Assembly (NCBI RefSeq): GCF_023055435.1
Contig: NW_025964223.1
Coordinates: 23,746,001 to 23,810,000, forward strand
Length of the DNA stretch: 64,000 bases
Origin: Haliotis rufescens
Lineage: Eukaryota
Direction of reading: 5' to 3'
The notes under the pieces are model-generated. The model worked only from the letters and a program-made list of their open reading frames with translations, made no database searches and was not told the DNA's origin. Positions 1-57,858 of the stretch are shown here, piece after piece; positions within the stretch are counted from its first letter, which is position 1; the number at the start of each line of letters is the position of its first letter. A program made the position numbers and the translations under genes.

Positions 1-650
1 AGAAGTCATTTTCCACTTGAAACCATCAATGCGTTATTTTACATCAAATGTAAATATGAAATGTAGATTATGCAATAAATTTAATGAGAATGTCCAACAC
101 ATTGTCAGTGGATGCCCAGCTTGGGCACAAACACAGTATTACATGAAGGAGTGGCTCGATCCTTTTGTTACCGTCTTTGCCATGCTTGTGGTTTTGACAC
201 AGAGGTAAATCCATGGTACGACCCAGAATATGTTGAGGGCGTCATTGAAAATGAAAAATACAATATTCTTTGGAATAGGCCAATATACAGTCTCAGGCGT
301 ATCAAGGCCAACAAACCTGAGCTTGTCCTTTTTTATGAATCCAAGGAAATCATTTATATTATTGAATTTTCTGTCCCTTTTGACACTAATGTGATTGACA
401 AGATTCAGGAAAACCATGGCAATTATGAAGACCTCGCTTTCGAAATGTCACGCTTGAATCCCAAGTACCAAGCTGTCCGACTCCCCATTGTTGTCGGTGG
501 CTTAGGTTTGGTACCTCCCCCTCTGTTGACTGATGTTGGGGTAGTACCCGGGTTTGCTACCAGGAATACAATCCTTCTGACAATATGGGTAATGCTGCAG
601 TCGCGTGGAGTTTTTAAGCTATCAATAATAATAATAATAATAATAATACA
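1..650 (+). mobile_element. 3' end of a decayed RLE-type non-LTR retrotransposon (R4/NeSL-like)
   Basis: CCHC knuckle CRLCNKFNENVQHIVSGC followed, after a frameshift, by a restriction-like endonuclease motif (WNRPI...NKPELVL...IIEFSVP...K...Y..L...LPIVVGGLG). A (TAA)n tract lies at ~623-647. Confidence 0.75.
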
Positions 651-5899: not shown

Positions 5900-6095
5900 T
5901 AACTACTTACAACAACCCGGTGCATAGCACATGCCATTTGAACAGATCATAAAATCATAGTTTACAAATCGATTAAGGAGCTATATATTACTTGAACTAT
6001 TTTACATTGGCTTGTGTAATGTATAAATACGGCGATTTCAAACCATTCGATACTTTGATCCTGTTCGGAAAAGAAGCTCCAACTTTTGTATCAAG
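5900..6095 (+). promoter_or_regulatory. Conserved TATA-box core promoter and 5'UTR of the Kazal genes (K1 shown)
   Basis: TATAAA lies ~73-75 nt upstream of the ATG in the intact copies (~10 nt less in K2): + strand 6022, 18352, 28201, 37977, 47278, 56660; - strand 15453-58, 26312-17 (CATAAA), 35719-24, 45017-22, 54396-401, 63902-07. Upstream blocks aactact..caacccggtgc and aaatcga..aggagctatatattacttgaa are shared, with variation, by both orientations. Confidence 0.75.
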
Positions 6096-8159
6096 ATGAA
6101 GGCTGCTGTTATTCTTGCTGTTCTTGCTGCAGTGCTGTGCGGTGAGTTAAATTCTTTTCCATCTGCTGCCTTTTGTGTGATGGCCATCATGTGCCTCACT
6201 CTATAATGTGGAGCCGTATCACTCTGGGTACATGTGATTTTATGCATCCCTCGTTAGGTATTATAAAACCACATGTTCCGAGTGATCCTGCTACAACGGA
6301 TTTTTTAATATGACATTGTAAAAGAATGAAAACAAATGCAAAATTGATAGAACACAGATGTTCGATTGAGCTGAGGTTAACGTGTGCTAGATCATGTGAC
6401 TTTACATTTACTCGATAAAGGCGTACGGTCTTCCGCTTCGAAGCGGGGTGTAAGGGATTTATTCTTACTCTTAGAAATCCACGTGCTGTCTTTTATGGTC
6501 GTGGCGGGGTATAAGGGATTTATTCTCCCTCTCGGCAATACACGTGCAGTCGGTGTCCTTTGTGGCGGGGTACAAGGGATTGATTCTCCCGCTGAGAAAT
6601 GTATTTCACTCCAAGGCGGGATACACAGTATTTTCTCAAGATCAGATCTCATCATTCTGAAATGGAGGTATGAAGGTGTAATCCGAAGTATGACATTGTT
6701 ACTTCCGCGAAACGTTCTTTTGAATTTCAGATTAATTCTGATTTCCATCCATTGGTTTTCAGCATCACACCCGTGCTTGTTGGTTTCAGGAGAAGCAAAC
6801 ACAAAATTTGCTTTCAAAGTGTCAGCAAAGGTATTCTGTGTAGAACCTATTCATTGCAACAGCCTAGTGCTTGCGTCCCTGGTTAGGTTTTATAAAATCA
6901 CATGTACCGAATCATCCTACCACAACAAAAAGTGTAATATAACATTGTAAAAGAACAAAAACAAATGCAAAATTGGTAGAACACAGCTGTTCGATTGAGC
7001 CGAGGTAAACGTATGCTATGTCATGTGACGTGCATTGACTCGGAAAAAGCGTACGGCTTTTCGCTTCAACGCGGGGTGTAAGGGATTTATTCCGCCTTTC
7101 CCTAATCCTCATGTGGTCTGTCTTGGTCGTGGAGCTATGATAATAGAATTTATACTTTACTTAGAAAGTGTAATGCGAAGTGTGACATTGTTACATCCGC
7201 GAAACGTTGTTTTGAATTTCAGATAAGTTCTGATTTCGAGTTTTTGGTTTTCAGCATCACACCCGAGCTTGTTGGTTTCAGGAGGACTCGACCGCGTCCT
7301 TATGAAGCAAACACAAAATGTGCATTTAAAGTGTCGGTCAAGGTATACTGTGTAGAACCTATTCATTGCAACAGCCTAGTGCTTCCCGAGGGACTTGTGA
7401 CGGATAGACATGTCATTCTTCCCCTAATCTCTCTTCACAGCCAGCACTGTCAATTGTGACTGCATTTGTTCCCGCATCCTTGACCCAGTCTGTGACACCG
7501 CCGGCAACTACTACGACAACGCGTGCCTGTTGAACTGCGTTGAGTAAGTATATCAATGACTATTTTTACAGAAATCCTTCACATAATTTCATTTGGCACT
7601 AAGAGTATCGAATCAAAGTAGAATTCATCCCGATTATAACAGGTTAAGAATATAGTGATTAATCACTCACAAAACCGTAATTAATCCCATTTTGCGGTTT
7701 GATTGTTAATGTGAAAATGTAAAGTGATAACATCAGCCGTCGCCCTTTTGTCCTTTTGTTGTATATGATCATGGTAAATACATAAATATTATCTCCATGA
7801 TCTGGACAGTCACTGACATTACGTCCATTTCCCCATTATGTCATGTGCATATAATTGTTCACTTTGGCGGCATAAACATGTATTCAATAGACTAATGCAG
7901 GGAAGTCAATAAGCAGGGCAACATGTTTGGGGATTTTTCTCGTGTCTGCAGATCCAATCGCTTAGATTGAGTTCAATGAAACGACACTTTTATCAATACA
8001 TAATGTTATGTATTCTAGCTACATTAAAGGAAATGTACCAGTAGCACCAATTCCTCATTCGTGACTCACGATGGATCTTCACTTTGCAGGGGTGCCGTCT
8101 TGGCCGCAGAAGGCGCCTACACCGTCAGTGCCAACTCTTGCGTTGCTGCCAGGAAGTAG
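6096..8159 (+). CDS. K1: secreted single-domain Kazal-type protease inhibitor precursor, 72 aa, 3 exons
   Basis: Exons 6096-6141, 7441-7543, 8090-8159; GT-AG introns of phase 1 and 2. Translation MKAAVILAVLAAVLCASTVNCDCICSRILDPVCDTAGNYYDNACLLNCVEGAVLAAEGAYTVSANSCVAARK*. Hydrophobic signal peptide, Kazal Cys pattern, TATAAA at 6022, AATAAA at 8227. Confidence 0.9.
6441..6640 (+). repeat. Degenerate ~60-bp minisatellite in K1 intron 1 (also K3, 18731-18925)
   Basis: Core gcggggt(g/a)(t/c)aagggatt(t/g)attct at ~6442, 6504 and 6565, with a weaker copy at 6616. Confidence 0.75.
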
Positions 8160-8232
8160 ATGACCATCACCTTCACCTTTGACAAAATGGAGCTTCCCCG
8201 ACCACAGAAGCACATATTGCTTGAGCAATAAA
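8160..8232 (+). terminator. Conserved 3'UTR with AATAAA polyadenylation signal (K1 shown)
   Basis: AATAAA at 8227-8232, ~68 nt after the stop. The same UTR and hexamer occur in the paralogues, with variants in K2 and K8. Confidence 0.75.
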
Positions 8233-14087: not shown

Positions 14088-14477
14088 CTCCGACAATTTT
14101 GTTCTGAGTATCCCATACTCGTTATGTGAAGGGACTCAAAGAGAATCGGGTGGAAACAATGGAGACCTGTGGAAAATATAGTCTACTCACACTTTCAATC
14201 CTGCTCACATAATCGAAAACAGATGTGAGATATATTCAGCCTACTCTACAGGGAAAAATGTATTGACCTTAGTCTGTTATACATTCTGTCGTGTCGTGTT
14301 GAATCGGGATACAGTTCAGGATAAACTTGATTTGTATTTAACCTTGTCGAAACTCGACGGGATCAATAAATATACATGAAAAACAGACATGACCATATGT
14401 ATTGCTTCTATATTATATTGCACAACCAATATGTGCTTCTGTAATCGGAGACGCTCCATTTGGTCAAAGGTGAAGGT

Positions 14478-15384
14478 GGCAACAACACAAGAGTTGACAC
14501 TGAAGGTGTAGGCCCCTCCTGCGCCCTGCAATGTGAGGCAAGATGGAGAAATTGTTACTGGTTTTATTTCCTTAAATTTAGTTAGATAACATAGGATGCA
14601 TTAATATAAAAGGCATATTTATCGAGGTTTTTTAAAATCAATCTATGCGATTAGATCTCTACACGTGACAAAAATAAATCCAAAACATGCTTACATGAAC
14701 TTCCTACCCTTGTCCTTGTCTAACAAATCGCAAAGAGAACCATCGTATTAATAATCATTGGGATTAATTGCGGTTTCACTATAGTCGACAAATCACAATA
14801 TTCTAGCCTGTCATATCTGGGATGAACTCTACTTTGCTTTGATACTCCCCTTGCTAGGGTCGAGTTATGAGACGGTTCGCTGTAAGAATTTCAGGGATAT
14901 ACCTACTCAACGCAGTTCAACTGGCACGCGTTGTCGCGGTGTCACCGACGGGGTCAAGGATGCGGGAACAAAGGCAGTCACAGTTGACAGTGCTGGCTAT
15001 GAAGAAATATGAGGTGTAGAATGATATGTCTAATCTGATACTGGTTCCTCGGGAAGCACTTTGTCTTTGAAAGGATTTTTTTCCACACAATATACCTTGA
15101 CCGACACTTTAAATCGACGACTTTTGATTTCTAAATGTAAAACATTATCGATGTGGCTTCACTTCGACACAGTCAATCTGAGACCAACGGGTACGGGAGG
15201 GATGGGGAGAAACTGGTGACAAACGAATACTGGATTCAAAACTATGTGAGGTTTCTGGCTCGCATAACTCAGCGGTGACCCGTGGGAAAATGCACAACGG
15301 ATTGTGCATGTGCATTTGAATATACCTGATAAAACAGAGCTTAAACTCACCGCACAGAACCACAGCAAGAACAGCAGCCTTAAT
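14478..15384 (-). pseudogene. K2: Kazal-type inhibitor pseudogene
   Basis: Exon 1 (15384-15351) has ATG>ATT and a 9-nt deletion. Exon 2 (14996-14907) is 90 nt instead of 103 (13-nt frameshifting deletion) and has CysIII>Gly. Exon 3 (14525-~14478) has deletions including the stop codon. PolyA signal is changed to AATATA. Confidence 0.9.
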
Positions 15385-15713
15385 CTTGATACAAAAGGTG
15401 GAGCTTCTTTTCCGAACAGGATCAAAGTATCGAATGGATTGAAATCTCCGCATTTATACACTACACAAGCCCATATAACATACTAATTCATGTAATATAT
15501 AGCTCCTCGGTCGATTTTGTAATCGAAGATATAATTAGAGGCATCGTATAAATGACTATTTCACAAGAGGTGAAGTGCACATGAATTCACATCACTCACT
15601 CGCTCGCCCTGTCTCAAACTTACTCACTCATTCACTCAACCTCTAACTCACGCTATAACTCTCTAACTCACTTACTCTCCAAATCATTCAGTCACTCAAT
15701 CTCTAACTCATTC

Positions 15714-18425: not shown

Positions 18426-20151
18426 ATGAAGGCTGCTGTTATTCTTGCTGTTCTTGCTGCGGTGCTGTGCGGTGAGTTTAATCCTTTTCTATCTGATGCC
18501 TTTGTGTGATGGCCATCATGTGCTACACTCTTTAGGTTGTTGTAGTACCGCTCTGGGTACATGTGATTTTATGCATCCCTCGTTAGCTTTTATAAAATCA
18601 TATGTACCGAGGGATCCTGCTACAACGATTATTTTAATATGACATTGTAAAAGAATGAAAACAGGTTAATGTGTGCTATGTCATGAGACTTTCATTGACT
18701 CGGAAAAAGCGTACAGTGGTTTGCTTCAAAGCGGGGTGTAAGGGATTTATTCTATATCTCAGAAATCCACGTGTTGTCTGTCTTGGTCGTGGCGGGGTAT
18801 AAGGGAGTTATTCTCCTTCTCAGCAATACATGTGCAGTCGGTGTTCTTCGTGGCGGGGTACAATGCATTGATTCTCCCGCTGAGAAGTGTATTTCACTCC
18901 AAGGTGGGATACATAGTAATTTATCAAGATCAGATAACCTACCTATGTTATCCCACTCATGTATGCCCTTGTTGTTACTGTTAATCCTCTACTGTTAATC
19001 CTCCACTTGCTATATATATTCTGCACTATGTCCCTCATTCAGTCTTGCTTGACAACGGTATAAGGATCTTTACCGAAACGTCGCTTTTTACAGTATTAAA
19101 GAAGTTGTTATCCATAAAATTGTGTCTATCTTGTCAAGATCAGATCAGACCATTTTGACATGGATGTATGGTAATAGAATTTATACTTTACTTAGAAAGT
19201 GGAATCCGAAGCATGACATTGTTCCTTCCGCGAAACGTTCTTTTGAATTTCAGATTAGATCTGATTTCGACCCTTTAGTTTTTAGCATCACACCTGAGCT
19301 TGTTGGTTTCAGGAGGACTCGACCGCGTCCTTATGAAGCAAAAACAAAATGTGCATTTAAAGTGTCGGTCAAGATATACTGTGTAGAACCTATTCATTGC
19401 AACAGTGCTTGCTGAGGGACCTGTATCAGGATAGACATATCATTGTAACCCCTAATCTCTCTTCACAGCCAGCACTGTCAACTGTGACTGCATTTGTTCC
19501 CGCATCCTTGACCCTGTCTGTGACACCGCCGGCAACTACTACGACAACGCGTGCCTGTTGAACTGCGTTGAGTAAGTATATCAATGACTATTTTATAGAA
19601 ATCCTTCACATAACTCCACCCAGCACGAGTATTAAATCAATATATAACTCACCCCGACTATAACAGGTTAAGAATATGGGGATTGGTCACCCGAAAAACC
19701 GTAAAGTGATAACATCAGCCGTAGCCCTTTTGTCTTTTTTTGTATATGATCATGGTAAATACATACATTATATCTCCATGATCTCGACAGTCACTAGAAT
19801 GACGTCCATTTTCCCCTTCAAGAATTATGTCATTTGCATATATCTGTTTCATTTGGCGGCATAAACATGTATTCAATAGACAAAGGCAGGAAAGTCAATA
19901 AGCAGGGCAACATGTTTGGGGATTTTTGTCGTGTCTGTAGATCCAATTGCTTGTATTGAGTTTAATGAAACGACACCTTTATCAGCTATACATAATCTTA
20001 TGTAATGTAACTACAATAAAGGAAATGTACCAGTAGCACGAATTCCTCATTCGTGACTCACGACTGATCTTCACTTTGCAGGGATGCGGTCCAGGCCGCA
20101 GAAGGCGTCTACACCGTCAGTGCCAACTCTTGCGTTGCTGCCAGGAAGTAG
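18426..20151 (+). CDS. K3: secreted Kazal-type inhibitor precursor, 72 aa
   Basis: Exons 18426-18471, 19469-19571, 20082-20151. Translation MKAAVILAVLAAVLCASTVNCDCICSRILDPVCDTAGNYYDNACLLNCVEDAVQAAEGVYTVSANSCVAARK*. TATAAA 18352, AATAAA 20213. Confidence 0.9.
18936..19133 (+). mobile_element. Short Penelope-like retroelement end in K3 intron 1
   Basis: Flanked by the direct repeat tcaagatcagat and absent from the K1 intron. Contains cttgacaa-[stem-loop]-ccgaaacgtcg followed by attaaa. Confidence 0.55.
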
Positions 20152-23100
20152 ATGACCTTCACCTTTGACCAAATGGAGCTTCCCCGACCACAGAAGCACA
20201 TATTGCTTCAGCAATAAAATGTAGAAGCAAACCATCTGGTCATGTCTATTTTTCTGATTTTATTAATACTGATGGCTGTCCACATGATTAGATACAAGAC
20301 ATGTAATTTTGAACTGAGCCATCATTCGATACGACAGAATGTGCTTTTGGCTGATAACCTGCACAGAAAAAGGTCAACACATCTGTCTCTGTGGGGATAG
20401 GCTGAATACATCACACATCTGTTTGCGATTATGTAAGCAAATTTGAAAGTGTAAGTGGACTATATTTCCCTTGCACAGTCGAGACATTTGAACGGTTGAG
20501 TATTCACCAATCAACCCATACAGGATACAAGGGAAGCGCAGTACAGACTTTAGAGTATAATGGCCCTGTTCTGCCACCATTGCTCCACCCGACCCTCATT
20601 CAGTCTCCTCATTAAAACACGCATGATCTCCTCAGTACATACATTTCTCGGAATACATGTTGGCGCTCGTAAATACATCATGACTTTGTATTAGCATATT
20701 ATATACATTTCCCTCAAATAGGGAGTCAACCATCTCTGTGGTGATAGTGGATAGAGCGTCTGCCCAGAGTGAGAGAGGGTGAGGCAGAGGAGGGAGGGAG
20801 GGAGAGAGAGAAGGGGGTGATTCGACCAAATATCAAAAGACGTACAAATATACTACTTGTTGTTACCCTGCCTCTGATGTCGGCATTAAGGGGAGATGAA
20901 ACAAGGAGTGGCCGTGTACATATTGTCAGTGGTATTTCGGTGTGCTAGCACTATTGGACATCAACAGCATGCTGATCTGATTGGTGGTTATTTGTCTTGA
21001 TAAAAAGGCGTGATTGTTTGCATATAAATGTTACAGTATTTAGACCAGCTAAGATCAGATGCACACATGTCTCTATTGCTCCTCACTGCGAGATATAGCT
21101 CGTTCTGTAGGCTTTCGTCATCGTAGAAAAGGTTTTATGTGACCGCCATTAGTAACACAAAGTGCAAGCATGGTGACAAACATGGTGACAAGCTAAACTG
21201 TCAGCTAGACATGTTCACGGGTGGTGAATAGTTAGGCAGTGTGTATTGACGTCAACCTGCCTCGCAGCGGACCGTTGGCGTGCCGGGGTCATAATCCAAC
21301 ACTCTGATTATGATTCTTTGTTTTAGCAGCACCATCCCTGGTTAACGACATAGACCTTCATCAGTTTGTGCTCTTCCTCACAGGAGCTGACACGCCGTGA
21401 GATTACACTTGTCGCTTGCGTCCACCCTCATATGGCATAAAAAGAAACAAAAGATTTTAATGAATGAACATTTGGGGTTCAGTAAAAAAGGGGGCCTTAA
21501 TGAATGTATTCAGATGGTGTTAAGGCGACGGCGCACGAGTTGCCTGAGATGGTAAAGGTTCCAGCTAATTTCTCAACTCCACTGTAGAAACAGTGACGTG
21601 AATAAACAAAAACACTATATTTTCAGTGTTTAAACATTCCTGTGTCATTAAACCGTCAAGTATCTGTGCTACATGCAAACGTTGGAATTATACCGTTTTT
21701 GGCTATCGAATATGATGATTTATGTAATACTGGGGTCAAAACTATTCAAGAAGTTTGACAAGTAATGAGTTCTTACGTGCTGTCAAGCATACAGGTTCTA
21801 CACAAGACTTTGAGGTCAGTGCCACAAACCGGGTCAAAGATGAAAGAGCATGCACATATCTCTCCAGATACGGAGTAGGTGGCGGTAAAAAGACGATACA
21901 ATTCAATGGGATATTCAGTGTTGTGTACCGCACTACCGTCGAAACCAGGTAGATTTGAGTTTATTGTCATCAATATTTCAGCTTCAACACCGAGGTCTGC
22001 TTTGAGATACATTCTCTCTTCATGATAGTCACAAGGTCCACAAAAGTATGTCATCCAAAAAAGGAAAATGTAGATCATAATAATAATTTTAAAAATATGA
22101 TAAAAACTAAAAGAAACGGAATACAATTAAAAAAATAAATGTAAACAAAACTATATGCACAAATGTTAAATCAAACTTAGGATAAACTGTAGGTAGTGAA
22201 ACCATAACAACGGTAAGAGTATCTATAAACGGTTTTTCATCATAATGGCATATGAAACAAACAAGCTCTGGCTAATAGTGATTTGATATTTAATCATCTA
22301 AAATCAGAGTTGGAAAGCTGAAGGACGGAAGCAAGTTTGAACTTTTGAGCATAACATTCATCCCTTAGTGCTTGATATTGTTAATATGTATATGGACCAT
22401 AATACTATTGGTGATGCTAGTCGGGTAAGTCAGATTGACTGCATTTTCACTGAACTCATTCCTGATATCTGCGGTGGAGATGCCGTTCATTTTCAAAGTA
22501 ACATATGATGACCTGAGTTATTTATTTACATGAACTATATTTGATGGATGATTTGTTGGATGAAAAGACCCCATCCCCATTATTAACGAATTATGTTTAA
22601 CGATTTTAACTTTCGAACTTCTCCTTCAATAGGTATCACTATATGGATACCAGTAAACCGTATCTACACATCTAAATTTATATGAACTACTACTCAAACA
22701 TGTAATTCATATACTCTTTCATTCAGAATGGAATTAGTTACTGAGACACATCACAATTTCACGACCACTTTTCCCTGAAATATTTATAATAAAATATGAA
22801 CTCGCTTTCACATGTAAAGATATTTTTAATGTGAAATCCACTCAAACAAGACATATTACTTAGAAAATAAGTTAAGCGCCACTCAATATTTTTGACAATA
22901 CAAAAACTGGGGTCAAAATGTAAACAATATGGGGAGAGTTTTATATAAAACGACAACAAAATTGTGTAAAGAGGTTTATTGACATGAAACAATAGTTTAA
23001 ATTTTGTGAATATTTGCAGTTATGTGTCAGCAGCAGTGATCATAGAACAGCAAGTGTTTTATAGCCACTAAAGCGCTGAAACACTATCAACGCCAGTAAC

Positions 23101-23845: not shown

Positions 23846-23986
23846 NNNNNNNNNNNNNNNNNNNNNNNNNNNNNNNNNNNNNNNNNNNNNNNNNNNNNNN
23901 NNNNNNNNNNNNNNNNNNNNNNNNNNNNNNNNNNNNNNNNNNNNNNNNNNNNNNNNNNNNNNNNNNNNNNNNNNNNNNNNNNNNNN
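23846..23986. other. Assembly gap (141 N)
   Basis: Run of N next to the pentamer repeat. Confidence 1.
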
Positions 23987-24554: not shown

Positions 24555-26243
24555 CTACTTCCTGGCAGCAACGCAAGAGTTGGCACTGAAGGTGTAGGCG
24601 CCTTCTGCGGCCTGAACGGCACCACTACAATGTGAGGCAAAAATGAGCAATTGTTACTGGTATATTTCCTTTATTTTAGTTCGAAGTATGTATTAATATC
24701 AAAGGCATATATATCGTTTCATTAAAACCAATCTATGCCATTAGATCTCTACACATGACAAAAATAAAAATAAAACAAGTTAACGTCGATCTTGAATTTC
24801 CAACCCTTATCATTGTCTAACAAATCGCAAAGAGAACCATCGAATTAATCATCATTGGGATTAATTGCGGTTTCGTTACAGTCTACAAATCACAATATTA
24901 TATCTGGGATGAACTCTACTTTGCTTTGACACTCTTAGTGCTAGGGTGGAGTTGTGAGACGGATCTCTGGAAGAATATTTCATGGATATACTTACTCAAC
25001 GCAGTTCAACTGGCACGCGTTGTCGTAGTAGTTGCCGGCGGTGTCACAGACAGGGTCAAGGATGCGGGGACAAAGGCAGTCACAGTTGACAGTGCTGGCT
25101 ATGAAGATAGATGAAGGGTAGAATGATATGTTTATTCTGATACAGGTCCCTCCGCAAGCACAAGGTTGTTGCAATGAATATTTTCCACACAGTATACCTT
25201 GTCCCACACTTTAAATGAACATTTTGTCAAGACGACTTCGATAGCTATTAATAGGGGGCACTATTCGTCTAAGGCGCCGCAATTCGCTCTGCGGAGTTGC
25301 GAACCTTGGGTACGCCAGAAACCTATGAATCCTGGTTCGCTCCGATTATAATTCTAGGTTTCTCAGCACCATACTCCTGTTCGTGAGTTTCACCAAAGTG
25401 GTAAACGTTTGAGTCGTGCATCACTTCGGGCTTTCCTCCCACATCAATCTGACACGCCATCATATGATTGGAGGGGCGGTCGGGTAGCCTAGTGGTTAAA
25501 GCGTTCGCTCGTCACGCCGAAGACCCGGGTTCGATTCCCGACATGGGTACAATGTGTGAAGCCCATTTCTGGTGTCCCCCTCCGTGATATTGCTGGAATA
25601 TTGCTAAAAGGGGCGTAAAACCATACTCACTCACTCACTAACTCACTCATATGATTGGAATACCGCATTAAACCAAACACTCTCACTCACATTGATTACT
25701 AAACGTAAAACGATAGCTATGTAGCTTCATTAGGACGCGGTATAGTCCTTCTGAAACTAACAAGCACGGTGGGATGCTGACGAGGATGTGGGAACAAATG
25801 CAGCCACAGTTGACAGTGCTGGCTGTGATGAAATATGAGGGGTAGAATGATATTGCTCAGGAAGCACTACGTTTTTGCAGGGAATATTTTCCACAATATA
25901 TACCTTGACCGACACATTAAATTGACGACTTTCAGTTAGTAAATGTAAAATGATATCTATGTGCCTTCATGTAGACGCGGTTCATCTGAAACTAACAAAT
26001 ATGCGTGTGATGGTGACACTTATTAGGATCGAAATCAGAACGAATCTGGGATTAAAAACTATAAGAGGATTCAGACTCAACTAACTCAGCGACTTTCTCC
26101 ATCTCAGGCGACAGAGTCAATTATGACCGTGGGAAAATGCACAACGGATTGTGCATGTACACTTGAATATAACTGATGAAACAGAGCTTAAACTCACCAC
26201 ACAGCACCACGGCAAAAACAGCAAGAACAACAGCGGCCTTCAT
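24555..26243 (-). CDS. K4: secreted Kazal-type inhibitor precursor, 72 aa
   Basis: Exons 26243-26198, 25098-24996, 24624-24555. Translation MKAAVVLAVFAVVLCASTVNCDCLCPRILDPVCDTAGNYYDNACQLNCVDGAVQAAEGAYTFSANSCVAARK*. TATA box is the variant CATAAA. Confidence 0.88.
25473..25646 (+). mobile_element. SINE family A nested in a family B SINE
   Basis: 13-bp TSD tcatatgattgga; empty site in the paralogue at ~44423. Confidence 0.9.
25783..25824 (-). pseudogene. Truncated duplicate of exon 2 inside K4 intron 1
   Basis: Minus strand reads cacag|ccagcactgtcaactgtggctgcatttgttcccacatcct (ASTVNCGCICSHIL) with an intact AG acceptor, then switches back to intron-1-type sequence. Confidence 0.8.
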
Positions 26244-28274: not shown

Positions 28275-29690
28275 ATGAAGGCTGTCGCTATTCTTGCTGT
28301 TCTTGCTGTGGTGCTGTGCGGTGAGTTTAAGTTTTGTTTTATAAGTTCTCTTCCAATGTTTATCCACATTCCATTGTGCATTTTCCCACGGGTCACATTT
28401 GGCCCAATCGTCGGTCGATGTGTTAGAAGAGCCGGAATCCTCTCAGGTTCGTTCTGTTATCGATCCTTGGTTTGTCGGCTTCCCACCCGTGCTTGTTGCT
28501 TTAAGAAGGAGTCGGTCTCGTCCTAGTGAAACTACATAGTTATCTATTTACATTTAGTAATCCAAGTGAGGGTGTGAGTTGGGTTTAATGCCGCCTTGTG
28601 TGGTATTCCAATAACATGGTGGCGTGTCAGCTTAATGTGGGAAGAAATCCCGAAGTGATGCGCGACTCAAACATTTAGCATTTTAGTGAACATGAGTATG
28701 GTGCCGACAAACCTAGAAACATAATCGGGTCGAACCCTGATTCAAACCAACGATCACAGATCAAGGGACGCAACTCTCCCAAGCGTATGGACCACGACAC
28801 ATAGATATCGTTTTACATTTAGTTATTAAAAGTCGTCCATTTAAAGTGTTGGCCAAGGTACATTGTGTGGAAAATATTCATTCCAACGATATTGCCGTGT
28901 CCTTATGAAGCAAACACAAAATGTTCATTTAAAGTGTCGGTCAAGAAATACTATGTCGAATCCATTCATTGCAACAGCCAAGTGCTTGCTGAGGGACCTG
29001 TATCAGGATATACATATCATTCTAACCCCTAATCTCTCTTCATAGCCAGCACTGTCAACTGTGACTGCCTTTGTCCCCGCATCCTTGACCCTGTCTGTGA
29101 CACCGCCGGCAACTACTACGACAACGCTTGCCAGTTGAACTGCGTTGAGTAAGTATATCCATGAAACACTTCTACAGTGATATTCTCATACCTCCATTCT
29201 TGTTCTAAGAGTATAAAATCAAAGTAGATTTCATCCCAGATTCGAATATAGTGGTTAATCGCCGGTAACGAAACTGCATTTAACCAATTTGATGATTAAA
29301 TACCACTGTTCATTTTGTGATTTGAAAGTCAAATGTAAAGTGATCAAATCAGTTATACCACTTATGTCCTACAGGCGTATATGGTCGTGGTTAATACATA
29401 CAATACAACCTCCATCATAGACAAGGGCAGGAAATCCAATAAGCAAGGCAACATGTTGCGGGATTTTGTCGCATGTCGCAGAGATATAAATGAAAGATAC
29501 ATACTTTTGTTAAACGGAAAATATCCCTTATTCTTATTGCACACATCCTTTGATATACTGAAGTGAACGTGCCAGTAACAAGTCCTCATTCTTGCCTCAC
29601 GATGGACCTTCATATTGTAGGGGTGCCGTCCAGGCCGCAGAAGGCGCCTTCACCTTCAGTGCCAACTCTTGCGTTGCTGCCAGGAAATAG
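28275..29690 (+). CDS. K5: secreted Kazal-type inhibitor precursor, 72 aa
   Basis: Exons 28275-28320, 29046-29148, 29621-29690. Translation MKAVAILAVLAVVLCASTVNCDCLCPRILDPVCDTAGNYYDNACQLNCVEGAVQAAEGAFTFSANSCVAARK*. TATAAA 28201, AATAAA 29758. Confidence 0.9.
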
Positions 29691-33949: not shown

Positions 33950-35651
33950 CTACTTCTTGGCGGCAACGCAAGAGTTGGCACTAAAGGTGTAGGCGCCTTC
34001 TGCGGCCTGGACGGCACCCCTACAATATGAAGGTCCATCGTGAGGCAAAAATGAGGACTTGTTACTGGCACTTTCAATTTAGTATATCAAAGGATGTGTG
34101 CAATAATAATAGGGGATATTTTCCGTTTAACAAAAGTATGTATCTTTCATTTATATCTCTGCGACATGCGACAAAATCCCACAACATGTTGCCTTGCTAA
34201 TTGGATTTCCTGCCCTTGTCTATGATGGAGGTTATATTGTATGTATTAACCACGACCATATACGCCTGTAGGACATAAGTGGTATAACTGATTTGATCAC
34301 TTTACATTGTTAAGGTTCTTCGTGAGGCAAGAATGAGAAATTGTTACTGGGTTAATGGTGGTTATCTGTTAAATTGTATGCATTGACCATGACCATTCAC
34401 AACAAAAGGACATAAGTGCTACGACTGATGTTATCACTTTACATTTACAAGAGAACCATCGTATTAATCATCATTGGGATTAATTGCGCCTTATTACAGT
34501 CCACTAATCACTATGTTCTCGCATGTTATATCTGGGATGAACTCTACTTTGCTTTGACACTCTTAGTGCTAGGGTGGACTTATGAGACGGATCTCTGTAA
34601 GAATATTTCATACATATACTCACTCAACACAGTTCAACTGGCACACGTTGTCGTAGTAGTTGCCGGCGGTATCACAGACGGGATCAAGGATGCGGGGACA
34701 AAGACAGTCACAGTTGACAGTGCTGGCTGTGAAGAGAGATGAAGGATAGAATGATATGTCTAATCCTGATTCAGGTCCCTCAGCAAGCATAACGTCGGTA
34801 CCTCATCAAGCAGAGGGTGGTGGCAATGAATATTTTCCAAACAGTTTACATGTACCTTACACAAAACTTTAAATAGACATTTTGTCAAGACGGCTCACAT
34901 TACAAGGGGCACGGGAGGCGTCGCGCGGCCAGTTTCTTTGCAGTTTTGCGAACTTTGGGTACGCAAAAAACCTATGATCGTAGGTTTGACTCCCGGTTCG
35001 CCCCGATTATGTTTCTAGGTTTGTCAGCACCATACTTATTCGTGAGTTTCACTAAAGTGGTAAACGTTTGAGTCGTGCATCACTTCGGGCTTTCCTCCCA
35101 CGTTAAGCTGACACGCCGTCATATAAATAGAATACCGCAAAAGGCGGCATAAAACCCAACTCACTCACTCATTCACTGTGATAACTAAATGTAAAACGAT
35201 AGCTTTATAGCTTGATGGCTGGGTGTGAAGAAATATGAGGGGTAGAATGATATTGATCAGCAAGCACTTGGTTTTTGCAAGGAATATTTTCTACACAATA
35301 TACCTTGACCGACACATTAAAATGACGACTTTTAATTAGTAAATTTAACGATATCTATGTGTAAACGATATTATTCAGACGCAGTTCATCTGAAACTAAC
35401 AAGTATGGGTGTGATGGTGACCAACTAATTAGGATCGAAATCAGAACGAATCTGGGATTAAAAACTATAAGAGGATTTCGACCAAGATATCTCAGCGACT
35501 TGCTCCATCTCAGGCGACAGTGTCAATTGTGACCCGTGGGAAAATGCACAACGGATTGTGCATGTACATTTGAAAAAAAACTGATTAAACAGAGCTTAAA
35601 CTCACCACACAGCACCACGGCAAAAACAGCAAGAATAACAGCAGCCTTCAT
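33950..35651 (-). CDS. K6: secreted Kazal-type inhibitor precursor, 72 aa
   Basis: Exons 35651-35606, 34726-34624, 34019-33950. Translation MKAAVILAVFAVVLCASTVNCDCLCPRILDPVCDTAGNYYDNVCQLNCVEGAVQAAEGAYTFSANSCVAAKK*. Confidence 0.9.
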
Positions 35652-38050: not shown

Positions 38051-39185
38051 ATGAAGGCTGTCGCTATTCTTGCTGTTCTTGCTGTTGTGCTGTGCGGTGA
38101 GTTTAACTTTTGTTTTAAAAGTTCTATTCCAATGTATATCCAGAATCTGTTGTGCATTTTCCAAGGGTTTACATTTGGCCCAATCGTCAGTCAATGTGTC
38201 CATAGAGCCAGAATCCTCTCAAATTTGTTTTCAATCCCAGATTCGTTCTGATATTAATCCTTGGTTCGTCGGCATCCCACCCGTGCTTGTTGGTTTCAGA
38301 AGGAGTCGGCCTAGTCCTAATAAAGTTTCATAGCTATCGTTTTACATTTAGTAATCCCAGTGAGGGAGTGAGTTGAGTTTAACGCCACCTTTTGTGGTAT
38401 TTCAATTGTCAGCTGACGGCGTGTCAGCTTAATGGAGGAGGAAAGCCCGAAGTGATCCACAACTCAAACGTTTACCACTTCGGTGAAACTCACAAACATG
38501 AATATGGTACCGACAAACCTGGAAACATAATTGGTGCGAACTGGGATTAGAACCCACTATCATAGGTTTCTTGCGTACCTAAGGGACGCAACTCTGCAAA
38601 GCGGATGGACCACGACACATAGCTATACTTTTAATAATTAAAAGCCGTCCATTTAAAGTGTCGGTCAAGGTGTATTGTGTGGAAAAGATTCATTGCAACT
38701 TCATTGTGCTTGCTGAGGGACCTGTATTAAGATAGAAATATCATTCTACCTTTCATCCCTCTTCACAGCCAGCACTGTCAACTGTGACTGCCTTTGTCCC
38801 CGCATCCTTGACCCCGTCTGTGACACTGCCGGCAACTACTACGACAACTCGTGCCAGTTGAACTGCGTTGAGTAAGTATATCCATAAAATATGCTTACAG
38901 AGATTCGTCTAATACCTCCATTCTAGGACAAGGAGTATTAAATCAAAGTAGAGTTCATCCCAGATTAGAATATGGTGGTTAATCATCGCCGGTAACGAAA
39001 CTGCAGCTAACCTATATGACGATTAAATACCACGGTACTTTTTGAGATTTGAAAGTCAAATGTAAATTGATCCAAAAGGTGAAAATGGTCATCACGATGA
39101 ACCTCTACACTGTAGGGGTGCCGTCCAGGCCGCAGAAGGCGCCTACACCTTCAGTGCCAACTCTTGTGTTGCTGCCAGGAAGTAG
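38051..39185 (+). CDS. K7: secreted Kazal-type inhibitor precursor, 72 aa
   Basis: Exons 38051-38096, 38769-38871, 39116-39185. Translation MKAVAILAVLAVVLCASTVNCDCLCPRILDPVCDTAGNYYDNSCQLNCVEGAVQAAEGAYTFSANSCVAARK*. Confidence 0.9.
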
Positions 39186-43334: not shown

Positions 43335-44947
43335 CTACTTCCTGGCAGCAACGCAAGAGTTGGCACTGAAGGTGTATGCGCCTTCTGCGGCCTGGACGGC
43401 ACCCCTACAATGTAAAGGTTCATGGTGAGGAAGAATGAAAAATTGTAACTGGTACATTCCCTTCAATTTTGTTAGATTACACAACATGTGTTTTTCCTAA
43501 TTACGGCAGAAAAGCATATTTATCGTTTCATTAAAATCAATCAATGCGATTAAATCTTGAGACACGGCAAAAATAACACCAAAACATAGTTACACGGTAA
43601 TTAAATTTCCTGCCCTTGTCTACTGGATTAATGTTTTTGCTGTCAAATGAAGCACAGTCTTGACGACATATTTATTGAAGCAAAGGGGGGGGGGGGGGGG
43701 GGGGGGGGTGTTTAGAGAGGACTGTCAAGATAATGGGGGTTGAATGTTAAATTGTATGTCTTTACCATGACCATTCAAAACAAAAGGACATAAGTGCTAC
43801 GACTTATGTTATCACTTTACATTTTTACGTTGGCTTAGCAAATCGAAAAGAGAACCATCGTATTAATCATCATTGGGATTAATTGCGGTTTCGTTACAGT
43901 CGACTATATTCTAGCCTGTTATATTTGGGATGGACTCTAGTTTGCTTTGACACTCTTAGCGCTAGAGTTATGAGACGTATCTCTGTAAAAGTATTTCATT
44001 GATATACTTACTCAACACAGTTCAACTGACACGAGTTGTCGTAGTAGTTGCCGGCGGTGTCACAGACGGGGTCAAGGATGCGGGGACAAAGGCAGTCACA
44101 GTTGACAGTGCTGGCTATGAAGAGACATGAAGGATAGAATGATATGTCTATCCTGATACAGGTCTCTCAGCAAGTATAAGCTTGTTGCAAGGAATATTTT
44201 CCACACATTCTACCTTGTCCCACACTTTAAATGAACATTTTGTCGAGTTGCGAACCTTGGGCATGCAAGAAACCTATGATCGTGGGTTTGAATCCCGGTT
44301 CGCCCCGATTATGTTTCTAGGTTAGTCAGCACTATACTCATGTTCGTGCGTTTCACCAAAGTGGTAAACGTTTGAGTCGTGCAACACTTTGGGCTTTCCT
44401 CCCACGTTAAGCTGACACGCCATCATATGATTGGAATACCGCAAAAGGCGGCATTAAACCCAACTCACTCACTCATTCACTATGATTACTAAATGTAAAA
44501 CGATAGCTATGTAGCTTTATGGCTGGCTGTGAAGAAATATGAGGGGTAGAATGATATTGCTCAGGAAGCACTTGGTTTTTGCAAGGAATATTTTCCAAAC
44601 AATATACCTTGATCGACACTTTAATTGACGACTTTTAGTTAGTAAATGTAAAACGATATAAATTTACTTCATGCAGACGTGGTTCATCTGAAACTGACTA
44701 ATATGGGTGTGGTGGTGACACTAATAAGGATCGAAATCAGAAAAAATCTGGGCTTAAAAATTATAAGAGGGTTCTGACTCAACTAACTCTGCGACTTCCT
44801 CCATCTCAGGCGACAGAGTCAATTATGACCCGTGGGAAAATGCACAAGGGATTGTGCATGATACATTTGAATATAACTGATGAAACAGAGCTCAAACTCA
44901 CCACACAGCACCGCAGCAAAAACAGCAAGAATAACAGCAGCCTTCAT
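43335..44947 (-). CDS. K8: secreted Kazal-type inhibitor precursor, 72 aa
   Basis: Exons 44947-44902, 44114-44012, 43404-43335. Signal peptide MKAAVILAVFAAVLC; mature peptide identical to K7. PolyA hexamer is the variant AATACA. Confidence 0.9.
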
Positions 44948-47351: not shown

Positions 47352-48476
47352 ATGAAGGCTGTCGCTATTCTTGCTGTTCTTGCTGTTGTGCTGTGCGGTG
47401 AGTTTAACTTTTGTTTTAGAAGTTCTATTCCAATGTATATCCAGAATCTGTTGTGCATTTTCCAAGGGTTTACATTTGGCCCAATCGTCAGTCGATGTGT
47501 CCATAGAGCCAGAATACTCTCAAATTTGTTTTCAATCCCAGATTCGTTCTGATATTAATCCTTGGTTCGTCGGCATCCCACCCGTGCTTGTTGGTTTCAG
47601 AAGGAGTCGGCCTAGTCCTAATAAAGTTTCATAGCTATCGTTTTACATTTAGTAATCCCAGTGAGGGAGTGAGTTGAGTTTAACGCCACCTTTTGTGGTA
47701 TTCCAATTGTCAGCTGACGGCGTGTCAGTTGAATGGAGGAGGAAAGCCCGAAGTGATCCACAACTCAAACGTTTACCACTTCGGTGAAACTCACAAACAT
47801 AATTATGGTACCGACAAACCTGGAAACATAATTGGTGCGAACTGGGATTAGAACCCACTATCATAGGTTTCTTGCGTACCTAAGGGACGCAACTCTGCAA
47901 AGCGGATGGACCACGACACATAGCTATACTTTTAGTAATTAAAAGCCGTCCATTTAAAGTGTGTATTGTGTGGAAAAGATTCATTGTAACTTCATTGTGC
48001 TTGCTGAGGGACCTGTATTAAGATAGAAATATCATTCTACCTTTCATCCCTCTTCACAGCCAGCACTGTCAACTGTGACTGCCTTTGTCCCCGCATCCTT
48101 GACCCCGTCTGTGACACCGCCGGCAACTACTACGACAACTCGTGCCAGTTGAACTGCGTTGAGTAAGTATATGCATAAAATATGCTTACAGAGATTCCTC
48201 TCATACCTCCATTCTAGTACTAGGAGTATCAAATCAAAGTAGAGTTCATCCCAGATTAGAATATGGTGGTTAATCATCGCCGGTAACGAAACTGCAGCTA
48301 ACCTATATGACGATTAAATACCACGGTACTTTTTGTGATTTGAAAGTCAAATGTAAATTGATCCAAAAGGTGATAATGGTCATCACGATGAACCTTTACA
48401 TTGTAGGGGTGCCGTCCAGGCCGCAGAAGGCGCCTACACCTTCAGTGCCAATTCTTGTGTTGCTGCCAGGAAGTAG
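47352..48476 (+). CDS. K9: secreted Kazal-type inhibitor precursor, 72 aa
   Basis: Exons 47352-47397, 48060-48162, 48407-48476; protein identical to K7. Confidence 0.9.
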
Positions 48477-52714: not shown

Positions 52715-54326
52715 CTACTTCCTGGCAGCAACGCAAGAGTTGGCACTGAAGGTGTATGCGCCTTCTGCGGCCTGGACGGCACCCCTACAATGTAAAGGTT
52801 CATGGTGAGGAAGAATGAAAAATTGTAACTGGTACATTCCCTTCAATTTTGTTAGATTACACAACATGTGTTTTTCCTAATTACGGCAGAAAAGGATATT
52901 TATCGTTTCATTAAAATCAATCAATGCGATTAAATCTTGAGACACGGCAAAAATAACACCAAAACATAGTTACACGGTAATTAAATTTCCTGCCCTTGTC
53001 TACTGGATTAATGTTTTTGCTGTCAAATGAAGCACAGTCTAGACGACATATTTATTGAAGCAAGGGGGGGGGGGGGGGGGGGGGGGTGTTTAGAGAGGAC
53101 TGTCAAGATAATGGGGGTTGAATGTTAAATTGTATGTCTTTACCATGACCATTCAAAACAAAAGGACATAAGTGCTACGACTTATGTTATCACTTTACAT
53201 TTTTACGTTGGCTTAGCAAATCGCAAAGAGAACCATCGTATTAATCATCATTGGGATTAATTGCGGTTTCGTTACAGTCGACTATATTCTAGCCTGTTAT
53301 ATTTGGGATGGACTCTAGTTTGCTTTGACACTCTTAGCGCTAGAGTTATGAGACGTATCTCTGTAAAAGTATTTCATTGATATACTTACTCAACACAGTT
53401 CAACTGACACGAGTTTTCGTAGTAGTTGCCGGCGGTGTCACAGACGGGGTCAAGGATGCGGGGACAAAGGCAGTCACAGTTGACAGTGCTGGCTATGAAG
53501 AGACATGAAGGATAGAATGATATGTCTATCCTGATACAGGTCTCTCAGCAAGTATAAGCTTGTTGCAAGGAATATTTTCCACACAGTCTACCTTGTCACA
53601 CACTTTAAATGAACATTTTGTCGAGTTGCGAACCTTGGGCATGCAAGAAACCTATGATCGTGGGTTTGAATCCCGGTTCGCCCCGATTATGTTTCTAGGT
53701 TAGTCAGCACTATACTCATGTTCGTGCGTTTCACCAAAGTGGTAAACGTTTGAGTCGTGCAACACTTTGGGCTTTCCTCCCACGTTAAGCTGACACGCCA
53801 TCATATGATTCGAATACCGCAAAAGGCGGCATTAAACCCAACTCACTCACTCATTCACTATGACTACTAAATGTAAAACGATAGCTATGTAGCTTTATGG
53901 CTGGCTGTGAAGAAATATGAGGGGTAGAATGATATTGCTCAGGAAGCACTTGGTTTTTGCAAGGAATATTTTCCAAACAATATACCTTGATCGACACTTT
54001 AATTGACGACTTTTAGTTAGTAAATGTAAAACGATATAAATTTACTTCATGCAGACGTGGTTCATCTGAAACTGACTAATATGGGTGTGGTGGTGACACT
54101 AATAAGGATCGAAATCAGAAAAAATCTGGGCTTAAAAATTATAAGAGGGTTCTGACTCAACTAACTCTGGCGACTTCCTCCATCTCAGGCGACAGAGTCA
54201 ATTATGACCCGTGGGAAAATGCACAAGGGATTGTGCATGATACATTTGAATATAACTGATGAAACAGAGCTCAAACTCACCACACAGCACCGCAGCAAAA
54301 ACAGCAAGAATAACAGCAGCCTTCAT
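52715..54326 (-). CDS. K10: secreted Kazal-type inhibitor precursor, 72 aa
   Basis: Exons 54326-54281, 53492-53390, 52784-52715. As K8 except YYDN>YYEN; 34-nt deletion in the 3'UTR. Confidence 0.9.
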
Positions 54327-56733: not shown

Positions 56734-57858
56734 ATGAAGGCTGTCGCTATTCTTGCTGTTCTTGCTGTTGTGCTGTGCGGTGAGTTTAACTTTTGTTTTA
56801 GAAGTTCTATTCCAATGTATATCCAGAATCTGTTGTGCATTTTCCAAGGGTTTACATTTGGCCCAATCGTCAGTCGATGTGTCCATAGAGCCAGAATACT
56901 CTCAAATTTGTTTTCAATCCCAGATTCGTTCTGATATTAATCCTTGGTTCGTCGGCATCCCACCCGTGCTTGTTGGTTTCAGAAGGAGTCGGCCTAGTCC
57001 TAATAAAGTTTCATAGCTATCGTTTTACATTTAGTAATCCCAGTGAGGGAGTGAGTTGAGTTTAACGCCACCTTTTGTGGTATTCCAATTGTCAGCTGAC
57101 GGCGTGTCAGTTGAATGGAGGAGGAAAGCCCGAAGTGATCCACAACTCAAACGTTTACCACTTCGGTGAAACTCACAAACATGAATATGGTACCGACAAA
57201 CCTGGAAACATAATTGGTGCGAACTGGGATTAGAACCCACTATCATAGGTTTCTTGCGTACCTAAGGGACGCAACTCTGCAAAGCGGATGGACCACGACA
57301 CATAGCTATACTTTTAGTAATTAAAAGCCGTCCATTTAAAGTGTGTATTGTGTGGAAAAGATTCATTGTAACTTCATTGTGCTTGCTGAGGGACCTGTAT
57401 TAAGATAGAAATATCATTCTACCTTTCATCCCTCTTCACAGCCAGCACTGTCAACTGTGACTGCCTTTGTCCCCGCATCCTTGACCCCGTCTGTGACACC
57501 GCCGGCAACTACTACGACAACTCGTGCCAGTTGAACTGCGTTGAGTAAGTATATGCATAAAATATGCTTACAGAGATTCCTCTCATACCTCCATTCTAGT
57601 ACTAGGAGTATCAAATCAAAGTAGAGTTCATCCCAGATTAGAATATGGTGGTTAATCATCGCCGGTAACGAAACTGCAGCTAACCTATATGACGATTAAA
57701 TACCACGGTACTTTTTGTGATTTGAAAGTCAAATGTAAATTGATCCAAAAGGTGAAAATGGTCATCACGATGAACCTTTACATTGTAGGGGTGCCGTCCA
57801 GGCCGCAGAAGGCGCCTACACCTTCAGTGCCAATTCTTGTGTTGCTGCCAGGAAGTAG
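56734..57858 (+). CDS. K11: secreted Kazal-type inhibitor precursor, 72 aa
   Basis: Exons 56734-56779, 57442-57544, 57789-57858; protein identical to K7/K9. Confidence 0.9.

What the first reader, a model, noticed from the sequence alone, without database searches (positions are those of the whole stretch)
8090..8159. Atypical Kazal C-terminus: aromatic residue at the E-G-x-C position and the sixth Cys seven residues later
Seen: exon 3 encodes GAVQAAEGA-Y(F)-TFSANS-C-VAARK. Known: short Kazal domains close with ..E/D-G-x-C (e.g. LDTI GVSIKSEGSC). Here that position is Tyr (TAC) or Phe (TTC), each one base from Cys TGC, and the canonical CGSDG turn is CDTAG. With signal cleavage after V-N-C, the 51-aa acidic mature peptide has exactly six Cys spaced C-1-C-7-C-10-C-3-C-18-C. 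Inference: a relocated III-VI disulfide and an extra C-terminal strand could define a new Kazal subtype. Caveat: a V-VI spacing of ~17 also occurs in classical Kazal domains, so a conventional alignment is possible.
Basis: partly seen in the sequence, partly recalled or inferred. Interest (0 to 1): 0.7.

Follow-up and report, generated by a model that had tools for sequence, protein, structure and literature searches.

The report
Amplified abalone Kazal inhibitor, longer tail
A spliced abalone gene, present as 16 intact near-identical copies side by side, encodes a small Kazal-type protein that is likely secreted and likely blocks trypsin-like proteases; its longer tail is predicted to fold as a small hairpin while the last cysteine likely keeps the family's usual bond, so it is a minor variant rather than a new subtype.

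Summary
The sequence observation holds, with corrections. 8090-8159 is exon 3 of a 72-aa, three-exon Kazal gene (exons 6096-6141, 7441-7543, 8090-8159). Splice joints appear in contigs of runs guessed to be RNA. It is one of 16 intact copies (11 in the window) in head-to-head pairs; P1 is Arg in 15.

The "relocated disulfide, new subtype" reading is only partly supported.

For: an ungapped profile prefers Tyr60 in the CysVI slot (8.6 versus -3.2 bits). An AlphaFold model of a flanking RefSeq paralog with the same tail (pLDDT 86-91) shows a short helix and an extra hairpin.

Against: in that model the last Cys superposes on CysVI of ovomucoid, LDTI and infestin-4. V-VI spacings of 16-18 occur in 35 of 501 comparable domains. 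Four database domains have G-x-Tyr with CysVI seven residues later, three of them ending in a normal G-x-C. A neighbouring paralog keeps G-x-C with Phe seven residues before it.

Verdict: a non-classical group II Kazal inhibitor with an insertion in the known-variable CysV-CysVI segment. The array protein itself could not be folded, and no disulfide was measured.

The parts
6022..6027 (+). TATA-like box upstream of exon 1
   Evidence: seen in sequence; function inferred
6096..6141 (+). Exon 1 coding part: ATG and hydrophobic signal peptide, phase-1 GT donor
   Evidence: joint to exon 2 in contigs of 3 of 4 runs
7441..7543 (+). Exon 2: end of signal peptide (Cys21 at the likely -1 site), CysI-CysV, P1 Arg27 (7473-7475), Asp34 after CysIII, phase-2 donor
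   Evidence: Pfam Kazal_1 25.9 bits, cut-off 21; PDB matches SPI-1, infestin, LDTI, rhodniin for a sister exon 2
8090..8159 (+). Exon 3 (the finding): CysV-CysVI segment with G58, Tyr60 (8118-8120), last Cys67 (8139-8141), stop
   Evidence: loose ends from the exon-2 donor continue into exon-3 letters in 4 of 4 runs
8227..8232 (+). AATAAA polyadenylation signal
   Evidence: a poly(A) loose end lies behind the homologous site of the 39 kb copy in run X8
14406..15449 (-). Broken copy: start codon lost, CysIII codon changed, deletions in exons 2 and 3
18426..20151 (+). Intact array copy
21521..21890 (-). Broken older-type paralog (C-G-T-D turn, no AG acceptor, CysV lost); its exon 3 has G-T-F with Cys seven later
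24555..26243 (-). Intact array copy
28275..29690 (+). Intact array copy, the only one with Phe at site 60
33950..35651 (-). Intact array copy
38051..39185 (+). Intact array copy used for the first splice check
   Evidence: GT..AG joints: intron 1 in 3 of 4 runs, intron 2 in 4 of 4
43335..44947 (-). Intact array copy
47352..48476 (+). Intact array copy
52715..54326 (-). Intact array copy
56734..57858 (+). Intact array copy
62236..63832 (-). Intact array copy (five more intact copies follow beyond the window)

Best explanation
This is exon 3 of a spliced, 16-copy abalone gene for a single-domain Kazal protein that is likely secreted and likely inhibits trypsin-like proteases through Arg27, with a last cysteine predicted to sit in the usual CysVI place and a longer CysV-CysVI segment predicted to fold as a small hairpin. 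Mechanism: the signal peptide is likely cut after Cys21, leaving 51 residues with six Cys (inferred). C-x-C and the helix C-x3-C would form bridges I-V and II-IV as in LDTI, rhodniin and infestin (group II; inferred from sequence). The helix ends at CysV, a short third strand follows, then the chain makes a hairpin (Tyr60-Ser63, turn at 64-65, return strand) that brings Cys67 back to Cys33 (predicted on the paralog, carried over by tail likeness). The loop around Arg27-Ile28 would dock in the protease like a substrate (standard Kazal mechanism, established knowledge). Many near-identical copies under purifying selection point to a need for dose, not for variety (inferred).
For: Gene models, splice sites, P1 and pN/pS. 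Splice joints in public contigs. My splice of paralog L equals RefSeq XP_046329179.1 = P0151 letter for letter from its second Met. Pfam and PDB matches. Model of P0151 with rows that cover only the core: pLDDT 86-91 per block over residues 31-76, strands 40-42 and 46-48, helix 51-56, bridge 61, strands 66-69 and 72-75. Ranges put model Cys73 on CysVI of OMTKY3, LDTI, infestin-4. phmmer aligns P0151 without gaps to infestin-4 through the last Cys. V-VI spacing 16/17/18 in 20/13/2 of 501 same-framework domains. G-x-Tyr at V+11 with CysVI seven later in 4 of 909 domains, 3 with Gly two before the Cys. Paralog A ends G-A-C with Phe seven before, and aligns through its last Cys to the long-tail profile. 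Ala at the Cys21 position in paralogs L and A. C5-C6 length is known to vary and to tune stability (PMC9112662, passages).
Against: The array protein itself was not folded; the model is of paralog L (16 between V and VI, Gly after CysIII). The tool prints no S-S distances, and structure matches are weak (Z <= 4.1, Foldseek E >= 0.017), with only end residues shown. The ungapped pre-CysVI profile favours Tyr60 (8.6 bits, 37th percentile) over Cys67 (-3.2 bits, 2.6th) in copy 1, and Tyr over Cys in L; the all-domain HMM also runs on to A-A-E-G in that register. No tail profile aligns the array, L or B tails to the end. The four precedents come from a looser core pattern (2-6 residues between IV and V). 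Inhibition, secretion and tissue were not tested. Exon 3 candidates of paralogs A and B are predicted only.
Confidence: 0.68

Rival explanations
1. The old CysVI mutated to Tyr (G-x-C to G-x-Y) and a Cys seven residues on took over the bond to CysIII, so the hairpin is a rescue of a lost bridge and marks a lineage-specific subtype. In three dimensions this could look much like the best explanation; it differs in history and in where the Tyr ring sits.
For: Profile anchor at Tyr; short-type helix cap right after CysV (A-G-V in L scores at the 54th percentile of short tails, 1st of long tails); short helix and added hairpin in the model; G-x-aromatic kept in all 16 copies, in L and in the 21.5 kb broken paralog; whole-length rmsd to ovomucoids 4-6 A in most rows, against 0.4-0.7 A over the 29-33 core columns of short Kazals.
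Against: Model Cys73 maps on canonical CysVI; G-x-Tyr ... Cys pattern with a normal G-x-C end exists elsewhere; paralogs A and B have the aromatic without a Gly two before it; phmmer lays L's G-T-Y-S-I on ovomucoid's G-T-L-T-L, an ordinary third-strand start; no intermediate with Cys at site 60 was seen in 16 copies or 3 older paralogs.
Confidence: 0.2
2. The signal peptide is cut earlier (after Ala16 or Ser17), Cys21 stays, and the seven-Cys peptide forms a covalent dimer or a different bridge pattern, which could free Cys67 from the III-VI role.
For: Cys21 is present in 16 of 16 copies and absent from older paralogs; sites after Cys15, Ala16 or Ser17 also fit the small-residue rule (established knowledge).
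Against: The same position is Ala in L and A with small residues at -3, the classic cleavage pattern; L, A and B have the long tail with only six Cys after the signal region, so the tail does not depend on Cys21; the copies are near-identical, so invariance says little.
Confidence: 0.08
3. Exon 3 is a worn remnant of a duplicated Kazal core (the G-x-x-Y ... N-x-C stretch), so the last Cys descends from CysIV of a lost second domain.
For: MAFFT laid exon-3 peptides on the core; against a core HMM 24 and 29 of 1000 shuffles reached the real score for two array copies.
Against: Test made after seeing the alignment; 128 of 1000 for L, 222 for A, no score for B; exon 3 hits no Pfam family and no PDB chain; N-x-C is a hairpin turn in the model, not a helix start.
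Confidence: 0.04

Closest known systems
Non-classical group II Kazal inhibitors: LDTI (1AN1, 2KMO), rhodniin (1TBQ), dipetalin (1KMA), infestin-1 and -4 (2F3C, 2ERW)
   Same: C-x-C, C-7-C-10-C-3-C framework, P1 two after CysII, short helix with C-x3-C; best sequence and fold matches. Infestin-4 aligns without gaps to paralog L with 16 residues between V and VI.
   Different: No G-x-C before the last Cys; Asp after CysIII in the array; predicted hairpin in the V-VI segment; 18 residues there.
Aedes AaTI (5DAE, 7E50)
   Same: Single group II-type domain, P1 Arg loop like the array's, elongated C5-C6 region (PMC9112662, passages).
   Different: The model of L has the helix ending at CysV and the extra length folded as a hairpin; rmsd 2.2-3.2 A over 42-45 residues.
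Horseshoe-crab CrSPI-1 domain 1 (3PIS) and GmSPI-2 (4HGU)
   Same: Top fold matches, Z 4.1 and 3.8, rmsd 1.7 and 2.4 A over 39 residues.
   Different: CrSPI-1 domain 1 has two bridges only (PMC3082530, passages); both are about six or seven residues shorter over the matched range.
Classical Kazal: ovomucoid third domain, SPINK1
   Same: V-VI length similar; model's last Cys maps on residue 56 of OMTKY3.
   Different: Different I-II and IV-V spacing; whole-length rmsd 4-6 A in most Foldseek rows, so the tail path differs.
RefSeq XP_046329179.1 (P0151, 'dipetalogastin-like', Haliotis rufescens) and XP_071112416.1 (P0152, H. cracherodii)
   Same: Flanking older paralog with the same tail type (aromatic seven before the last Cys, N-S-C end) and the same three-exon plan.
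   Different: P1 Met, C-G-T-D turn, 16 between V and VI, no Cys21.
Conus conkazals (MKAVA) and MKTAV family (PMC13101452)
   Same: Gastropod Kazal-fold peptides; signal peptides begin alike; phase-1 intron after the signal and a later phase-2 intron are described for conkazals (section 2.6).
   Different: Conkazals have eight Cys, about 73 mature residues, P1 Glu and an extra helix; MKTAVs have two domains. Fold match of the model to schistosomin is only Z 2.0.

Membership tests
Kazal-type serine protease inhibitor | Profile match to Kazal_1 above the curated cut-off | tested here: met
   exon 2: 25.9 and 27.5 bits, cut-off 21; P0151 32.2 bits
Kazal-type serine protease inhibitor | Six Cys in Kazal order | tested here: met
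   Cys 23,25,33,44,48,67 in 16 of 16 copies; rests on cleavage after Cys21
Kazal-type serine protease inhibitor | Bridges I-V, II-IV, III-VI | tested here: inconclusive
   paralog model maps its last Cys on CysVI of solved Kazals; no S-S distances printed, array protein not folded
Kazal-type serine protease inhibitor | Central helix on a three-stranded sheet | tested here: inconclusive
   paralog model: two strands, helix, a one-residue bridge where strand 3 starts, then a hairpin; core rmsd 0.4-0.7 A over 29-33 columns
Kazal-type serine protease inhibitor | Reactive loop of seven residues between CysII and CysIII with P1 second | tested here: met
   P1 Arg in 15 of 16 copies, Leu in 1
Kazal-type serine protease inhibitor | Inhibits a serine protease | not testable with these tools
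   needs an assay
Non-classical group II Kazal | Helix Cys-x3-Cys tied to Cys-x-Cys (CSH motif; definition in PMC3082530, passages) | tested here: met
   C44-x3-C48 and C23-x-C25 in sequence; helix 51-56 spans the matching Cys52-Cys56 in the paralog model; bonding itself inferred
Non-classical group II Kazal | Gly two before CysVI (common, not formal: 402 of 469 domains) | tested here: not met
   Asn in 15 of 16 copies, Ser in 1; paralog A keeps Gly
Conkazal / schistosomin | Eight Cys, P1 Glu, extra C-terminal helix | tested here: not met
   six Cys, P1 Arg, 51 aa against the paper's description
Conus MKTAV family | Two Kazal domains, 13 Cys | tested here: not met
   single domain; MKTAV sequences themselves were not seen
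Proposed new subtype (moved III-VI bridge) | Last Cys away from the canonical CysVI position | tested here: not met
   in the paralog model it maps on CysVI; a model, weak Z, end residues only
Proposed new subtype (moved III-VI bridge) | Extra C-terminal strand | tested here: met
   predicted hairpin 66-69 / 72-75 in the paralog model, pLDDT 86-89; not shown for the array protein

The most novel reading that the evidence does not exclude
An abalone Kazal lineage lost CysVI to Tyr and rescued the III-VI bridge with a new hairpin, giving a scaffold not among solved Kazal structures; one member, absent from the protein collections searched, was then amplified to 16 head-to-head copies, and the hairpin with Asp34 may form a second binding face beside the trypsin loop.
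Probability: 0.18. Interest if true: 0.55.

Novelty: new variant of a known kind. Interest (0 to 1): 0.28.

Why it matters
Modest. The CysV-CysVI segment is known to tune Kazal stability and protease choice (PMC9112662), so a natural hairpin-stiffened long segment would be a useful comparison and an easy peptide to make. The larger by-product is annotation: a 16-copy, spliced, purifying-selected inhibitor gene whose product was not found in the protein collection, probably relevant to abalone defence or digestion. It does not change how Kazal inhibitors are understood.

Tried and rejected
Search for the array protein in the 5.8-billion collection: no candidate at 28-91 aa, only P0151 at 17-79 aa, P0151 plus 16 generic Kazals at 11-133 aa; forms longer than 133 aa were not searched. 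The representative search returned only multi-domain Kazals in its best 150 of 927; these became the reference set, which is biased to repeats and is not a mollusc sample. No scan of contig collections was obtained, so no transcript-derived locus was available and the spliced array protein was not folded. Single-sequence model of P0151: pLDDT 56, no Kazal helix, discarded. Alignment A3 with exon-3 rows: rows fell on the core, not used for folding. Exon 3 alone: no Pfam family, no PDB match. ESM Atlas with P0151: generic Kazal clusters, best 0.85, a lead only. No RNA holder is on record as RNA; contig depth was not used to rank expression; 8 of 24 listed runs were laid. MKAVA/MKTAV link: rejected on Cys count and size; the words MKTAV and Haliotis were not found in 7 supplementary files, one large docx could not be read and may hold the MKTAV alignments. 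Six paper searches listed no title or abstract on this gene family; subscription journals are mostly not covered. Four look-ups of earlier findings were empty. No complex prediction was sent: an inhibitor-protease pair would pass by likeness to solved structures.

Full report
What is there. Positions 8090-8159 are the last coding exon of a three-exon gene: 6096-6141, 7441-7543, 8090-8159, 219 nt, 72 aa, Cys at 15, 21, 23, 25, 33, 44, 48 and 67. Exon 2 matches Pfam Kazal_1 above the cut-off; a sister exon 2 matches SPI-1, infestin, LDTI, dipetalin and rhodniin in the PDB. The flanking paralog is named by its source as a Haliotis rufescens protein, so the window is abalone DNA.

The gene is real. 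In contigs of four runs guessed to be RNA, laid on the 38 kb copy, intron 1 is skipped at GT..AG in 3 of 4 and intron 2 in 4 of 4; one run has a poly(A) end. On the copy of the finding, four other runs give the intron-1 joint in 3 of 4, intron-2 joints with a few differing letters in 2 of 4, and loose ends running from exon 2 into exon-3 letters in 4 of 4. These contigs mostly carry sister-copy or relatives' letters, so expression of this very copy is not shown. 8 of 24 listed runs were laid.

The array. Exon 2 matches 18 places in G000, all on contig C445. Across the window and its flanks 16 copies are intact, 11 inside the window, all GT-AG, giving 10 distinct mature peptides; P1 is Arg in 15 and Leu in 1; site 60 is Tyr in 15 and Phe in 1; pairwise pN/pS is 0.24 for the mature part (pairs not independent). 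Copies alternate in direction as head-to-head pairs; neighbouring units are up to 99% identical over about 4 kb. Three older paralogs flank the array: L (upstream, equal to RefSeq P0151 from its second Met), A and B (downstream; their third exons are predicted only). They have 16, 17 and 17 residues between CysV and the last Cys, and none has Cys21; L and A have Ala there, which supports cleavage after Cys21. So the long tail is older than the array.

Is the spacing unusual? No. Among 501 C-1-C-7-C-10-C-3-C domains found in the 150 proteins, V-VI is 10 in 180, 15 in 122, 16 in 20, 17 in 13, 18 in 2, 19 in 14 and 20 in 39. Infestin-4, a solved structure, aligns without gaps to L through the last Cys. 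Asp after CysIII is rare but known, 20 of 909 domains in 10 proteins, and goes with loss of the Gly before CysVI (13 of 20 against 128 of 812; domains within a protein are not independent).

Which residue stands for CysVI? Sequence tests disagree. The all-domain HMM extends this copy to A-A-E-G in that register. Against: paralog A scores best at its Cys (1.2 against -1.2), ends G-A-C with Phe seven before, and aligns to the end of the long-tail HMM; B fits neither. In a looser set of 909 domains in 146 proteins, four have G-x-Tyr at V+11 with CysVI exactly seven later, three of them ending in G-x-C, so G-x-Tyr at this place need not be a worn G-x-C. phmmer lays L's G-T-Y-S-I on ovomucoid's G-T-L-T-L. 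Four proteins (P0011, P0018, P0064, P0103) also have a short-type helix cap, a long loop and no G-x-C.

Structure. The array protein is not in the collection searched and could not be folded. P0151 alone gave a useless model. With 30 extra rows that cover only the core, so that the tail register was not imposed, the model reached pLDDT 86-91 per block from residue 31 on: strands 40-42 and 46-48, helix 51-56 ending at CysV, a bridge at 61, and a hairpin 66-69 / 72-75 around Gly70-Asn71 with the last Cys (73) on its second strand. All clear fold matches are Kazal or follistatin domains. The core fits short Kazals at 0.4-0.7 A over 29-33 columns; whole-length fits to ovomucoids are mostly 4-6 A. 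End-to-end alignments place Cys73 on CysVI of OMTKY3 (25..73 on 9..56), LDTI (28..74 on 2..41) and infestin-4 (29..76 on 4..51); best Z 4.1 with CrSPI-1 domain 1. Only range ends are printed and Z is low, so this is moderate evidence. It says: extra strand yes, displaced bridge no.

How it most likely works. Shown: gene, splicing, copy number, Cys pattern, P1. Predicted: fold and hairpin (on the paralog). Inferred: secretion, cleavage after Cys21, bridges I-V, II-IV, III-VI, and substrate-like inhibition of trypsin-like proteases through Arg27-Ile28. L (P1 Met), A (Ile), B (Arg) and one Leu copy would cover other proteases. Amplification with little change suggests dose. Tissue and target are open; defence against microbial or dietary proteases is my guess.

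Comparison with what is known. Group II is defined by the helix Cys-x3-Cys cross-linked by two bridges (PMC3082530, passages); groups 1-3 rest on the I-V bridge (PMC8131977, passages). An elongated C5-C6 region is described for AaTI and lowers scaffold stability (PMC9112662, passages). Conkazals and MKTAVs are snail Kazal-fold families with similar signal starts but eight Cys or two domains (PMC13101452: abstract, first two text parts, sections 2.3 and 2.6, passages, word search of 7 supplementary files). Six paper searches listed nothing on this family by title or abstract.

Verdict. Observation partly confirmed; interpretation partly supported. A group II Kazal with a variant CysV-CysVI segment, predicted to form a hairpin, and most likely an ordinary bridge pattern. 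Whether Tyr60 descends from the old CysVI stays open (about 1 in 5). Interest 0.28.

Noticed in passing
window 6096-63832 and on to G000:C445:23836237: The repeat unit is a head-to-head gene pair (start codons about 2-2.5 kb apart), repeated about every 9.4 kb with strictly alternating direction; the older paralogs A/B and L/copy 1 are also head-to-head. Neighbouring units reach 99% identity over about 4 kb, so recent amplification, gene conversion or some assembly duplication is possible.
   Followed up: partly
window 6096-63832: The 72-aa product of the 16 intact copies was not found in the protein collection searched, though the flanking paralog L is in RefSeq; likely an annotation gap for short ORFs.
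   Followed up: partly
L012:1247-1349 (-), G000:C445:23821247-23821349: One intact copy has P1 Leu in place of Arg and a 4.5 kb second intron; it may target chymotrypsin- or elastase-like enzymes.
   Followed up: no
L013:9657-9714 and L014:630-2761 (-); L014:7059-9890 (+): Two unannotated-looking older paralogs, A (P1 Ile, ends G-A-C) and B (P1 Arg), with predicted three-exon structure and poly(A) signals.
   Followed up: partly
window 11290-11447 (-), 14406-15449 (-), 21521-21890 (-), 25783-25831 (-); L019, L020: Several broken Kazal copies and stray exon pieces inside and left of the array: a birth-and-death pattern.
   Followed up: partly
database domains: Asp after CysIII tends to go with loss of the Gly two before CysVI (13 of 20 against 128 of 812), which suggests the two sites are structurally coupled in Kazal domains.
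   Followed up: partly
G000:C246:5225746-5252377 (L026-L052, L057): A gene or cluster with about 50 near-identical short Kazal exons at about 0.5 kb spacing, P1 alternating Arg and Leu, normal 10-residue tail with G-x-C and the intron in the same place after CysV.
   Followed up: no
L023:1384-1695 (-), G000:C46: A Kazal stretch that seems to lack CysI and ends G-T-Y-C, with the last Cys one residue later than usual.
   Followed up: no
window 23846-23986: A run of 141 N between two array copies; it does not touch the exons used.
   Followed up: no
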